DNA from: Gemmatimonas sp.
GTDB lineage: Bacteria > Gemmatimonadota > Gemmatimonadetes > Gemmatimonadales > Gemmatimonadaceae
Assembly: GCA_965279375.1 (NCBI GenBank)
Contig: OZ257156.1
Location: 1,632,001 to 1,696,000 of the forward strand
DNA: 64,000 nt
Direction of reading: 5' to 3'
Made by a program: the position numbers
In this document: positions 33,001 through 36,000 of the stretch, piece after piece
Layout of the letters: each line of letters begins with the position of its first letter
Position numbering within the stretch: the first letter of the stretch is position 1

Positions 33001-36000
33001 GTCGGCTTCCTGCTCATCTCCAAAGTGCCGCCGCTGCTGCACACGCCGCTCATGGCCGCGACCAACGCGATCAGCGGCATCTCGCTTGTCGGCAGCATCG
33101 TGCTCGCCGGCGGACAGTACGGCACCGTCGCAACGATTCTTGGCGTCGTCGCGGTGGCCTGCGCGATGACCAACGTGGTGGGTGGATTCATCATCACCGA
33201 TCGCATGCTCAACATGTTCAAGCGCACGGAAAAGCCAGCCGAGAAGAAGGAAGGGGCGGCGTGAGCATGCTGTCGATGCTTCCCGGAGTGCTGCCGCTGT
33301 TGAGCGCGGCCAGCGAAAGCGCTGGCGGCACCAGCGAAACGCGAGAGCTGATCATTCAGGTCACCTATCTCGCCGCGTCGGTGATGTTCATCCTTGGGCT
33401 TCGCAGCCTGACCAAGCCCGACGAAGCGCGCCGCGGCATGCAGCTGGCCGCCGTCGGCATGCTGCTCGCGATCATCGGCACGATGCTCCATCAGGAGATC
33501 CTCACCTACACGTGGATCCTGACGGGCCTGGTCATCGGCTCGGTGATTGGCTACCCGCTCGGCAAGTTCGTGCCGATGACCGCGATGCCGCAGCGTATCG
33601 CCTTCTCGCACATGTTCGGCGCGCTGGCGGCTACGCTCGTCGGTATCGGCGAGTTCTATCACATGTACCAGGCGGGCACGCCCGCTCCGGCTGATGCCGA
33701 CGTGCGCTTCAAGATGGCGGCACTTGGTTTCGAAGTGCTGTTCGGCGCGCTGACGGTGTCGGGCAGCTTCATGGCGTTCGGAAAGCTGCAGGAGTTCATC
33801 ACCGGTCGTCCGGTGACGTACAAGGGACAGAACATCGTCACGGCGCTCGTCTTCATGATCGCACTCGGCGCGTTCTTCATGCTGATCGTGCAGCCGTCGA
33901 ACGTGTACGCGTTCTATACGATGGTCGCGGTGTCGTTCATCATCGGCTTCCTGTTCGTGCTGCCGATCGGTGGCGCAGACATGCCGGTTGTCGTATCGCT
34001 GCTCAATTCCTTTGCCGGTCTCGCCGCATCGGCCACGGGCTTCGCGATCGGCAACAATGTGCTCATCATCGCCGGTGCGCTCGACGGTGCCTCCGGCTTC
34101 ATTCTGTCGATCATCATGTCGAAGGCGATGAATCGCTCCTTCGGCAACGTGCTCTTCGGTGCGTTCGGCTCTGGCGGCGGTGCCGCCAGCACGCGCACGT
34201 CGGAGGGACTCACGGCCAAGAGCATCTCGGCGGAAGATGCGGCCGTATTGCTGGCCTATGCGGGCAAGGTCATCGTGGTGCCGGGTTACGGCATGGCCGT
34301 CGCGCAGGCGCAGCATCAGGTGCGCGAGTTGGCCGAGCTGATCGAGAAGAAGGGCGGCGAAGTGAAGTACGCCATTCATCCAGTGGCCGGTCGCATGCCT
34401 GGCCATATGAACGTGCTGCTCGCCGAGGCCAACGTGCCGTACGATCGCATGTACGACATGGACGAGATCAACGACCAGTTCCAGGAGTGCGATGTCGCGG
34501 TCGTCATCGGCGCCAACGACGTCGTGAACCCGGCGGCCAAGACGGATCCGGGCAGCCCGATCTACGGCATGCCGATTCTGCGCGTGAACGAGGCGAAGGC
34601 GGTGATCGTGCTCAAGCGTTCAATGAACACAGGCTTCGCCGGCATCGAGAACGATCTCTTCTTCGACGAGAAGACGAGCATGCTCTTCGGTGACGCCAAG
34701 GCGTCGCTCTCCAAGCTGGTCAGCGAGGTGAAGGGGTTGTAGTGCGTGCGTTTCGCACGCGCCGCGTCATTCCGATGGCGTGAGCGAGCGAGGTGACGAG
34801 TAGTCTGCAACGAGCCGCCTGCCATCGCAGCGCGGCTCGTTTGTGTGTCAGCAGGGAGTTGACTGTGCAGCTCGACGATCTTCGGCTCGCGCATGGCGAA
34901 GTCACGCGCAAGGTCATCGGCGCGTTCTATGACGTGTACAACGTACTTGGCTTCGGATTTGTCGAATCCGTGTACGGGAGCGCGATGGCCATCGCGCTGT
35001 CGAAACGAGGAGTGCAGTTCGAACGGGAACGACTGCTGGCCGTTCGCTATGGGGACGTGCTGGTTGGCGAATTCCGTGCGGACCTGATCGTGGAGCGGCG
35101 CGTCATTGTCGAACTCAAGGCCGCCGAGCGAATAGTGCCGGCGCACGAGAGCCAATTGCTCAATTATCTCCGGTCATCGGGCCTGCGAGTAGGTCTCATT
35201 CTCAACTTCGGCGCCAAGGCGACCATGCGTCGGCTCATCTGGACTGGATCTGGGATTGATGTGGCGGATATGAACGGATGAACTGCTCGGCCACGGATAT
35301 GAGCTGATAGAAACGGAAACTGCGCACGGATACTGCCCAAGCAGAGAGATTTCTCTTTTTGTGGTATCCGTGCGCAGTTTCCGTGTGCATCGGTTGGTAT
35401 CCGTGGCCGAGCAGTTCATCCGTTCTTATCCGCGCCACTCGTTCGACGGCTGCAATCGTTGAACGAATTCATCCCTGATGGTGCGGGAACCGACCAAGGG
35501 TGGCGCACGCTGGTCACGCGGATAACTTTCCTTGGCTGCGCCGTCGGCTTGGCGCGGACGTGTTCGTCATCATCTGGAGTGCTGTAGATGCCCGAGTTTG
35601 GAAGCTGGGGAACGGACTGGTGGAAGCCAGTGCTGTTCGTGCTGGTGGCTGGTCACATCACCAACGTGTGTGTGACGCTGTTTCTGCATCGTGCGCAAAC
35701 GCATCGTGGTGTTCGGTTTCACTACCTGGCGGAGTTGCCGATGCGTGTGTGGTTGTGGTTGACCACCGCAACGCGCACCAAGGAATGGGTGGCGTGCCAT
35801 CGCAAGCATCATGCGTTCGCCGATCGCGAGGGCGATCCGCATAGTCCTGTCGTCGAGGGACTGCGCAACATCCTGCTCAAGGGTGCGTTCTACTATCGCA
35901 AGACCGTGCGCCAGCCCGGCGTGCTCGAGAAGTACGGCAAGGGGACGCCCGAGGATTGGCTGGAGCGCCATCTGCTGGACAAGCGGAGCTCATTGGGGAT

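What a model noticed while it worked through the whole genome (the two positions that open the first line are those of the whole stretch)
34865..35433. GxxExxY (PDDEXK_3) nuclease gene is the cognate gene of a second dispersed palindrome family
The only GxxExxY gene (g01390, PF13366/TIGR04256, PD-(D/E)XK family) runs into a ~170-bp palindrome with CACGGATA-type units that recurs without the gene at 18 other intergenic sites, unrelated in sequence to the four-helix-bundle family. Across phyla GxxExxY genes lie in such inverted repeats, and the repeat family travels with the gene. This gives a putative nuclease family of unknown role a REP-like target family.
Evidence so far: 21 nhmmer intervals making 19 sites, all intergenic, 14 of 19 between convergent genes. 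Among 86 congeners strong matches occur only in G063, G062 and G043; G063 has the closest ortholog (78%) at the same pntB site, followed by the same palindrome, plus at least 8 gene-less copies. The copy inside the photosynthesis cluster (3120610-3120772) is an empty ~20-bp gap in G062. Two GxxExxY genes of single-contig G031 each own a private family (15 and 41 hits there, 0 in three other genomes; calls 200, 201). Inverted flanks or a hairpin at 74 of 103 usable loci (110 fetched; Gemmatimonadota, Acidobacteriota, Chloroflexota, Bacteroidota, Planctomycetota, Proteobacteria) against 14 of 647 controls. [...]
(Added by a program. Inside this text positions count along the whole contig: contig position 1,632,001 is position 1 of the stretch shown here. 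"Call 12" and the like, gene names such as g00115 and contig names such as C1 are that model's own, and its searches are not shown. The text may have been shortened before it was handed on; [...] marks where a part breaks off. The agent that wrote the report below was given it as the finding of a first reader that could run no searches.)

Follow-up and report, generated by a model that had tools for sequence, protein, structure and literature searches.

The report
Nuclease gene with its own palindromes
A small DNA-cutting-type gene of unknown function ends inside a 170-base hairpin repeat that is scattered, without the gene, at 18 other places in this genome; in related bacteria the repeat variant next to the gene is the abundant one and it dwindles where the gene is lost, which gives this large orphan gene family a testable target.

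Summary
Confirmed. The genome's only GxxExxY gene (34865-35281; PD-(D/E)XK residues intact, dN/dS about 0.1) ends in a 170-bp palindrome (35264-35433). The family has 19 two-armed sites (13 core, 6 diverged), 14 between convergent genes (background 84 of 1076).

Support for 'cognate': (1) in three lineages the hairpin variant beside the orthologue is the amplified one; (2) kin that lost the gene keep few copies (G040 6 arms versus G041 28; G034 4 rows versus 29 and 61); (3) the repeat word follows the protein clade: CRCDGAT with clade A across 14 phylum labels, CRCRGAG/CRCRAAG with clade B, and a written prediction held in 80 new clade-B loci (67 matched, 0 opposite).

It behaves like REP/RAYT but the enzyme is unrelated (Cas4/RecB-like, not HUH), so it is not a REPtron. 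Most likely: the nuclease cuts its words in hairpin DNA and host recombination copies the element, replacing older palindromes in reused slots (inferred; no biochemistry, no excision product seen).

Not found in eight literature searches; this scan noted the cassette before on other DNA (79 notes).

The parts
34865..35281 (+). GxxExxY (PF13366/TIGR04256) gene, 138 aa; E34, D73, E83, K85, Q97, Y101 and Y37 are invariant across 42 aligned homologues
   Evidence: AlphaFold pLDDT 89.7; dN/dS 0.12 against the G041 orthologue
35264..35333 (+). Left (gene-proximal) arm of the palindrome: degenerate array of CGGATA-type words; overlaps the end of the gene
35334..35363 (.). 30-nt loop with a small A/T-rich inner hairpin
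35364..35433 (-). Right arm, 89% complementary to the left arm, with a mismatched middle block
34794..34798 (+). Single TGACG: weak version of an upstream motif shared by many GxxExxY and Uma2 genes of this genus (promoter or operator, inferred)
   Evidence: this gene itself ranks only 154 of 4379 with the doublet matrix
34809..34841 (.). Short 10-bp hairpin between pntB and the gene, conserved in G041 and G066
11776..11948 (.). Gene-less copy of the family between convergent genes; shared with G041; the same slot holds other hairpin families in G040 and G003
23950..24123 (.). Gene-less copy of the family; shared with G041; slot empty in G003, another family in G004
33261..34742 (+). pntB, left neighbour (context only)
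   Evidence: PF02233
35588..36364 (+). DesA-like desaturase gene, right neighbour (context only)
   Evidence: NF049918 below its cut-off

Best explanation
The GxxExxY protein is the trans-acting partner of a family of non-autonomous palindromes. SHOWN: the gene is intact and under purifying selection; the hairpin variant beside the orthologue is the abundant one in each lineage; gene loss goes with few, decayed copies; the repeat word is tied to the protein clade across phyla. INFERRED: the protein binds tandem CRCDGAT-type words (spaced 9-10 bp, about one helical turn) presented on a DNA hairpin or cruciform and cuts there with its Cas4/RecB-like active site. A hydrolytic PD-(D/E)XK enzyme is not expected to rejoin DNA (own knowledge), so host recombination or repair would copy a palindrome into the break from the gene-linked or another copy. 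This gives renewal of old copies, replacement of one family by another in the same intergenic slot, tandem expansion and occasional new sites, mostly at the 3' ends of convergent genes, where insertions are tolerated.
For: Gene-linked variant is the amplified one: G000/G041 (26 and 28 arms), G003/G073/G074 (29, 35, 61 rows), G066 (36 rows; its variant survives as the 4-copy sub-family of G000); a clade-B gene in G003 has its own family. Loss contrasts: G040 versus sister G041; G034, G026, G069, G038 (4, 3, 2, 1 rows, no gene at the slot) versus kin with the gene; truncated remnants in G069 and G026. Word follows clade: 80 GAT, 1 GAG/AAG, 3 mixed, 35 untyped of 119 clade-A rows; 21 GAG/AAG, 0 GAT, 1 mixed, 6 untyped of 28 clade-B rows; prospective 67 GAG/AAG, 1 mixed, 12 untyped, 0 GAT of 80, at 32-68% GC. 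Catalytic residues invariant; fold nearest Cas4, Hjc and restriction-enzyme domains. No RAYT in G000. Gains and replacement: slot with overlapping or abutting stop codons in G034 and G069 holds the family in G003 and G074; another slot holds a different CRCGGAT family in G034, G069 and G026; three tandem units in G074. No excess of G.T over A.C mismatches on the coding strand (102:138), so no sign of selection on an mRNA stem.
Against: No biochemistry and no excision or empty-site product: no joint skips the element in four runs. Many sites are old: four are shared by G000 and G041 at about 80-87% identity, so spread is slow, and loss contrasts fit protection as well as spread. G071 has an orthologue but only 2 rows with the G003 query; G066's gene has one frameshift yet its family is large; G018 holds one site without an orthologue. 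The clade-word link is a single change on the tree and physical linkage alone can carry it. 37 of 136 loci show no strong inverted repeat. 3 of 7 true CRCRGAT brackets in Acidobacteriota enclose something other than GxxExxY. Genome counts are lower bounds (53 or 9 candidates scored per genome) and come from related, partly fragmented genomes.
Confidence: 0.55

Rival explanations
1. Maintenance or RNA-level partner: the palindromes serve the host as 3'-end or bidirectional stop structures between convergent genes, and the protein binds or trims them (as DNA or RNA) and so keeps them from being deleted; it does not create new copies.
For: 14 of 19 sites between convergent genes; old shared sites; slots refilled by other families; decay after gene loss; housekeeping-like behaviour: 8 of 72,556 plasmids and 0 of 50,697 phages.
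Against: Copies were gained in slots with no spacer in outgroups and inside the photosynthesis cluster; lineage-specific variants match the gene-linked copy; no G.U bias on the coding strand; slots are often empty without visible harm.
Confidence: 0.18
2. The protein is a true transposase that both cuts and joins, for example through a covalent intermediate on invariant Y37 or Y101, as RAYTs do with REPs.
For: Two invariant or near-invariant tyrosines; REPtron-like anatomy; inside the stem a mismatched block in 11 of 13 G000 sites recalls the required REP bulge (PMC8266576).
Against: Fold and residues are those of hydrolytic PD-(D/E)XK enzymes; QxxxY is a known non-covalent motif of RecB/Cas4-type nucleases (recalled); no HUH motif; the mismatched block is present in only 4 of 13 arm pairs from G041, G040 and G018; no clean junction or target duplication seen.
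Confidence: 0.12
3. Cargo or hitch-hiker: the palindromes are moved by some other enzyme or by replication slippage, and the GxxExxY gene merely landed in or beside them and is inherited with them.
For: 3 of 7 true brackets enclose other sequence, one a host FeS-assembly gene; an IS30 element sits inside arms in G041 and G058; the four-helix-bundle gene has the same anatomy with an unrelated repeat.
Against: Dispersed, unlinked copies track the gene's presence in two independent contrasts; two genes in one genome keep two separate families; the word stays with the protein clade from 32% to 68% GC; no RAYT and no such IS30 end in G000.
Confidence: 0.12

Closest known systems
REP/REPIN-RAYT systems (REPtrons, BIMEs; PMC8266576 abstract and introduction, PMC3116915 passages, PMC5581495 abstract)
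   Same: One chromosomal, vertically kept nuclease gene beside cognate palindromes; dispersed intergenic inverted doublets forming hairpins; tandem arrays; gene presence goes with repeat abundance; several gene-repeat pairs per genome; rare on plasmids; insertion sequences land in the repeats.
   Different: Enzyme is PD-(D/E)XK (Cas4/RecB-like), not HUH/Y1; repeats are 70-nt arms of tandem 7-base words, not 20-50-nt stems with GTAG; tens of copies, not hundreds; in other phyla the gene is enclosed by the arms.
TIRtrons / TIRYT genes (PMC3733652 passages)
   Same: Gene flanked by long inverted repeats that also form moderately abundant dispersed families.
   Different: TIRYTs are tyrosine (Y1) transposases; sequence families unrelated; that paper does not mention Gemmatimonas.
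ORF-bearing intervening sequences of 23S rRNA (S23p, four-helix bundle; PMC4990558 passages)
   Same: Small ORF between complementary ends (the bracket form seen in other phyla); the same genome has a four-helix-bundle gene with its own hairpin family.
   Different: Not in an rRNA gene; gene lies outside the stem here; different protein; no G.U bias; many gene-less copies.
Cas4 (SSO0001, 4ic1), Holliday-junction resolvase Hjc, Uma2/DUF820 nucleases
   Same: Nearest folds (Foldseek E 2.6e-4 for 4ic1, 1.5e-3 for Hjc; VIA-align Z 9.3 BpuSI domain, rmsd 2.5, 101 aligned; Z 8.2 3ijm; Z 7.7 4ic1); weak PADLOC Cas4 match (E 0.004).
   Different: No cysteines, so no Fe-S cluster; neighbours are pntB and a desaturase, not cas genes; all Z values are near the background range, so the fold gives no specific function.

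Membership tests
GxxExxY / PDDEXK_3 (TIGR04256, PF13366) | Score above the curated cut-offs and the GxxExxY motif | tested here: met
   131.9 bits vs 22; 127.8 vs 35; G31-E34-Y37
PD-(D/E)XK nucleases | Acidic residue plus (D/E)xK on the core sheet, restriction-endonuclease-like fold | tested here: met
   D73, E83, K85 invariant; fold matches
PD-(D/E)XK nucleases | Metal-dependent nuclease activity | not testable with these tools
   No assay; PMC3424549 (one table row seen) lists PF13366 as 'Unknown'
Cas4 | Four cysteines binding an Fe-S cluster (recalled) and CRISPR-cas context | tested here: not met
   No cysteine in the protein; neighbours pntB and a desaturase
REP/REPIN-RAYT (REPtron) | HUH-superfamily Y1 transposase gene next to the repeats | tested here: not met
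   Gene is PF13366; no PF01797 match in G000 while 6 of 14 control genomes ring
REP/REPIN-RAYT (REPtron) | 20-50-nt palindromes preceded by a conserved tetranucleotide, mostly GTAG | tested here: not met
   Arms are about 70 nt of tandem words; the consensus of 20 arms has no GTAG or CGTC tag
REP/REPIN-RAYT (REPtron) | Inverted doublets forming hairpins in intergenic space | tested here: met
   19 two-armed sites, one weak singleton; positions between genes
REP/REPIN-RAYT (REPtron) | Single-copy, housekeeping-like gene whose presence goes with repeat abundance | tested here: met
   but congeners hold up to 9 paralogues
REP/REPIN-RAYT (REPtron) | Cleavage and strand transfer of single-stranded repeat in vitro | not testable with these tools
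   No assay
23S rRNA intervening sequence | Inserted in an rRNA gene, ORF enclosed by the terminal stem | tested here: not met
   Between pntB and a desaturase; gene outside the stem
23S rRNA intervening sequence | Excised from RNA by RNase III | not testable with these tools
   No RNA run listed
MITE of a classical IS | Target-site duplication and ends matching an autonomous IS | tested here: inconclusive
   No clear duplication at 5 filled/empty comparisons, one ambiguous 4-nt overlap of stop codons; genomes 80-90% identical
Known structured RNA (Rfam) | Match at the family's gathering score | tested here: not met
   Five sub-threshold hairpin matches only, 19-27 bits vs 45-268

The most novel reading that the evidence does not exclude
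A widespread class of miniature mobile DNA that spreads without any transposase: a 15-kDa Cas4-like nuclease reads a clade-specific 7-base word on cruciform or hairpin DNA, cuts it, and lets host recombination overwrite older palindromes with the gene-linked master copy ('palindrome homing'). Different GxxExxY clades, with different words set by their N-terminal helix, would compete for the same intergenic slots, and the four-helix-bundle genes would run a parallel system.
Probability: 0.35. Interest if true: 0.87.

Novelty: new variant of a known kind. Interest (0 to 1): 0.72.

Why it matters
PF13366 is a very large family found across prokaryotes (71 of 87 congeners here, up to 9 copies each) and is listed as of unknown function. 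The result supplies a specific, cheap test: two protein clades, two repeat words, a swap experiment. If the protein spreads the repeats, the REP/RAYT arrangement has evolved a second time from an unrelated, hydrolytic enzyme class, and many unexplained palindromes in Gemmatimonadota, Acidobacteriota, Bacteroidota, Chloroflexota and others get a source. A 138-aa sequence- and structure-specific nuclease with natural specificity variants would also be a useful tool.

Tried and rejected
Homodimer prediction: no answer, score 0.00; not used. No RNA holder listed. No joint skipping the element in contigs of X1, X5, X6, X8; contigs drop rare variants, so this is no proof of absence. No solved structure by sequence; no usable ESM Atlas hit outside PF13366. 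Idea that the upstream TGACR-N6-TGACR motif marks a DNA-damage regulon: not supported; the doublet is not enriched genome-wide (45 hits, spacing controls 35-112) and the annotated top-ranked genes are mixed; it is genus-specific (0 of 78 cross-phylum loci). Idea of a universal asymmetric bubble in the stem: holds in 11 of 13 G000 sites but only 4 of 13 pairs elsewhere. RNA-stem selection: G.T:A.C 46:52, 28:43, 28:43 on the coding strand; pooled 102:138, p 0.024 in the other direction; 58:64 in dispersed copies; the weak excess is not relied on. Target-site duplications: none clear. Loop-content test in Acidobacteriota was too loose: of 30 loci most were gene-less hairpins, 7 true brackets, 4 with GxxExxY. 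pntAB as species marker failed (11 of 30 genomes); rpoB used instead (22 of 30). The careful tree did not finish; the quick IQ-TREE tree (147 rows, 136 columns, SH-aLRT only) was used. Family absent from VIA-align or Foldseek lists is not excluded. PMC9881135 holds no mention of the family; the myRT preprint mentions GxxExxY once, beside an RT.
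Full report
1. What is at the coordinates. ORF 34865-35281 encodes a 138-aa GxxExxY protein (PF13366 131.9 bits, TIGR04256 127.8 bits), the only one in G000. Its last 18 nt overlap the left arm of a palindrome with 70-nt arms, 89% complementary, 30 nt apart (z -17.9). 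An independent contig matches the region without a difference. Neighbours are pntB and a DesA-like desaturase gene. Homologue labels and the bchO/bchZ genes point to a phototrophic member of Gemmatimonadota (inference).

2. The family in G000. BLAST and an arm profile find 13 strong sites; a second iteration gives 19 two-armed sites and one weak singleton, with no hit on the reversed genome. Eight core sites have arms pointing together, five have them pointing apart; tandem arrays in G074 show how the second geometry arises as the inner junction of two units. Four of the six diverged sites form a sub-family. 14 of 19 lie between convergent genes against 84 of 1076 background gaps (my own ORF caller, 4379 genes). 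The gene-linked copy scores highest against the family profile (146.6 bits, next 138.9; it was also the seed). Arms of one site resemble each other more than arms of other sites in the core and inner blocks (0.91 vs 0.86, p 0.018; 0.83 vs 0.78, p 0.04) and less in the middle block (0.58 vs 0.66). The four-helix-bundle gene has the same anatomy with an unrelated repeat. G000 has no Y1 transposase.

3. The protein. G31, E34, Y37, G68, D73, E83, K85, Q97 and Y101 are invariant in 42 homologues and, except G68, stay at 93% or more in both clades of 147. The model (pLDDT 89.7) is nearest Cas4 SSO0001, Hjc, Uma2-like and restriction-enzyme domains, at scores that show the fold but no specific function. 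There are no cysteines. dN/dS is 0.07-0.14 in 7 of 7 pairs. Relatives occur on 8 of 72,556 plasmid records and 0 of 50,697 phage records. Orthologues stay in one neighbourhood, after the esterase gene or after pntB.

4. Association across bacteria. I took 70 genus loci (30 best by family score, 40 picked from the list of more than 200 matches) and the best 80 of 591 from other genomes. After dropping two duplicates and one short locus, 136 of 147 had 300 nt on both sides; 99 have an inverted repeat of score 15 or more, against 6 of 182 equal windows in the same loci. In this genus the hairpin mostly follows the gene (29 of 65; brackets 14 plus 3 mixed); elsewhere brackets dominate (40 plus 5 mixed of 71).

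5. The word follows the protein clade. The tree splits into two clades (SH-aLRT 100, quick method). Clade A (119 rows, 14 phylum labels, includes this gene): 80 CRCDGAT, 1 GAG/AAG, 3 mixed, 35 untyped. Clade B (28 rows): 21 CRCRGAG/CRCRAAG, 0 GAT, 1 mixed, 6 untyped. I defined the word classes after seeing these flanks, and the split is one change on the tree. I therefore wrote a prediction and fetched the best 80 of 602 new clade-B loci from metagenomes: 67 GAG/AAG, 1 mixed, 12 untyped, 0 GAT, at 32-68% GC. Words are spaced 9-10 bp in clade A and 8-9 bp in clade B; the clades differ most in the N-terminal helix, residues 18-32.

6. Does the dispersed family depend on the gene? 71 of 87 congeners have some GxxExxY gene, so only orthologues count. 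(a) Arms of this family: G000 26, G041 28 (24 at 45 bits or more), G040 6, G018 2, others weak. G040 is sister to G041 (bootstrap 98-99). It lacks gene and hairpin at pntB (21 nt against about 720), lacks the family at two more slots shared by G000 and G041, and has an internally deleted copy at a third. (b) The hairpin beside G003's orthologue gives 29, 35 and 61 rows in G003, G073 and G074, which carry sister genes, and 4, 3, 2, 1 rows in G034, G026, G069, G038, which have no orthologue (slot seen empty in G034, G026, G038); G034 groups with G003 and G074 by rpoB (96-97% identity, bootstrap 69). G071 has an orthologue but only 2 rows with this query. (c) G066's orthologue (one frameshift, recent loss or assembly error) is followed by a different variant, with 36 rows in G066 and 3 in G000, where it is the diverged sub-family. 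(d) A clade-B gene of G003 owns a second family (30 rows; 0 in four other genomes). Counts are lower bounds and kin are not independent; I count two loss contrasts and three lineage-specific amplifications.

7. Gains, losses, slots. The copy between bchO and bchZ is a 21-nt gap in G040 and a few nt in G018. A site shared by G041 and G040 is empty in G000. A slot where convergent stop codons overlap or abut in G034 and G069 holds one unit in G003 and three in G074. Another slot holds this family in G003 and G074 but a different CRCGGAT family in G034, G069 and G026. Slots of G000 hold clade-B-type hairpins in G003 and G004. No clear target duplication was seen; the genomes are too far apart (80-90%) to fix junctions. 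Four sites are shared by G000 and G041, so turnover is slow.

8. DNA or RNA. Mismatches on the coding strand show no G.U excess (102:138 pooled, p 0.024 the other way; 58:64 in dispersed copies). No RNA run was listed. Rfam gives only sub-threshold hairpin matches.

9. Against the reading. No activity is shown. Loss contrasts fit protection as well as spread. 37 of 136 loci lack a strong repeat. In 401 genomes of the phylum of G087 a bracket pattern matched 46 genomes (reversed control 2 hits; the tally includes one unpublished genome, G140, on which nothing else rests); of 30 loci examined 7 were true brackets and 4 of these enclosed GxxExxY, one a host FeS-assembly gene, two unidentified sequence. 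G018 holds one site without an orthologue, in a stretch 85% identical to G000, possibly transferred with its flank.

10. Mechanism. Best reading (0.55): cognate DNA nuclease, cut plus host recombination. It accounts for slot reuse, replacement, tandem growth, coupled arms and missing target duplications, and needs no joining activity. Rivals: maintenance or RNA role (0.18), true transposase (0.12), cargo (0.12). That the gene is the cognate partner in some form is about 0.85.

11. Literature. Eight searches ran. 'GxxExxY' occurs in 3 papers, 2 listed; I saw one passage of 10.1101/2021.01.26.428298 (beside an RT) and only the listing of PMC12085832. PF13366 occurs in PMC3424549 (one table row seen: 'Unknown') and PMC9756366 (listing only). 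For comparison I read passages of PMC3116915, PMC3733652, PMC4990558, the abstract of PMC5581495, the abstract and introduction of PMC8266576, and a term search of PMC9881135; no supplements. The library lacks most subscription papers. Earlier notes of this scan describe the bracketed cassette in at least 79 genomes; they are not independent evidence. What this locus adds is the gene-adjacent form, the orthologue-level loss contrasts and the prospective clade-word test.

12. Verdict. Real, not a member of REP/RAYT, IVS or Cas4 families, works like a REPtron with an unrelated enzyme. New variant of a known kind; interest 0.72.

Noticed in passing
Upstream of genus GxxExxY genes (L001-L070) and of Uma2 genes at G000 1604430-1605008, 1216664-1217227, 1780651-1781235: A TGACR-N6-TGACR direct repeat followed by a -10-like box precedes 24 of 69 genus GxxExxY genes and ranks three of six Uma2 (PF05685) genes 1, 5 and 26 of 4379; absent from 78 cross-phylum loci. 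Suggests a shared genus-specific promoter or regulator for small PD-(D/E)XK genes.
   Followed up: partly
L383 (G041:C172:6751-7769), L421 and L424 (G058): An IS30-family element sits inside the palindrome arms at all 4 ends seen in G041 and G058, at a similar position; 0 of 8 ends of a one-mismatch variant in G034, G026, G038 do.
   Followed up: partly
G000 2703694-2704086 and hairpins at 244699, 335515, 2217027, 2703503, 4237267, 4699187, 4838403, 5109418: Four-helix-bundle (PF05635) gene with related repeat sequence on both sides and a dispersed family of unrelated sequence: same anatomy as the GxxExxY system.
   Followed up: partly
G000 3021269-3021310; L013:2064-2140 (G041); L167: Short words at arm ends expand into perfect tandem runs (13-mer four times in G000; 10-mers seven to eight times in G041), suggesting slippage at the hairpin ends.
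   Followed up: no
L233:4440-5090 (G076), L270:200-730 (G020), L234:2680-3570 (G066): Orthologues at the same slot in different states of decay: 5'-deleted (G076), short 5' fragment (G020), single frameshift (G066), each still followed by a hairpin.
   Followed up: partly
L210 (G018:C1:4415200-4417600) versus G000 2182719-2183703: G018's only copy lies in a stretch 85% identical to G000, above the roughly 80% seen elsewhere; possible transfer of a gene end with its palindrome.
   Followed up: no
window 31764-34742: pntAB is patchy in the genus (DNA match in 11 of 30 genomes) and sits between the esterase gene and the GxxExxY slot only in some lineages.
   Followed up: no
L441:1495-1954, L447:1474-1975, L455:65-516: CRCRGAT brackets of cassette size that enclose a PF01883 gene, a short unknown ORF and no recognisable ORF.
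   Followed up: partly
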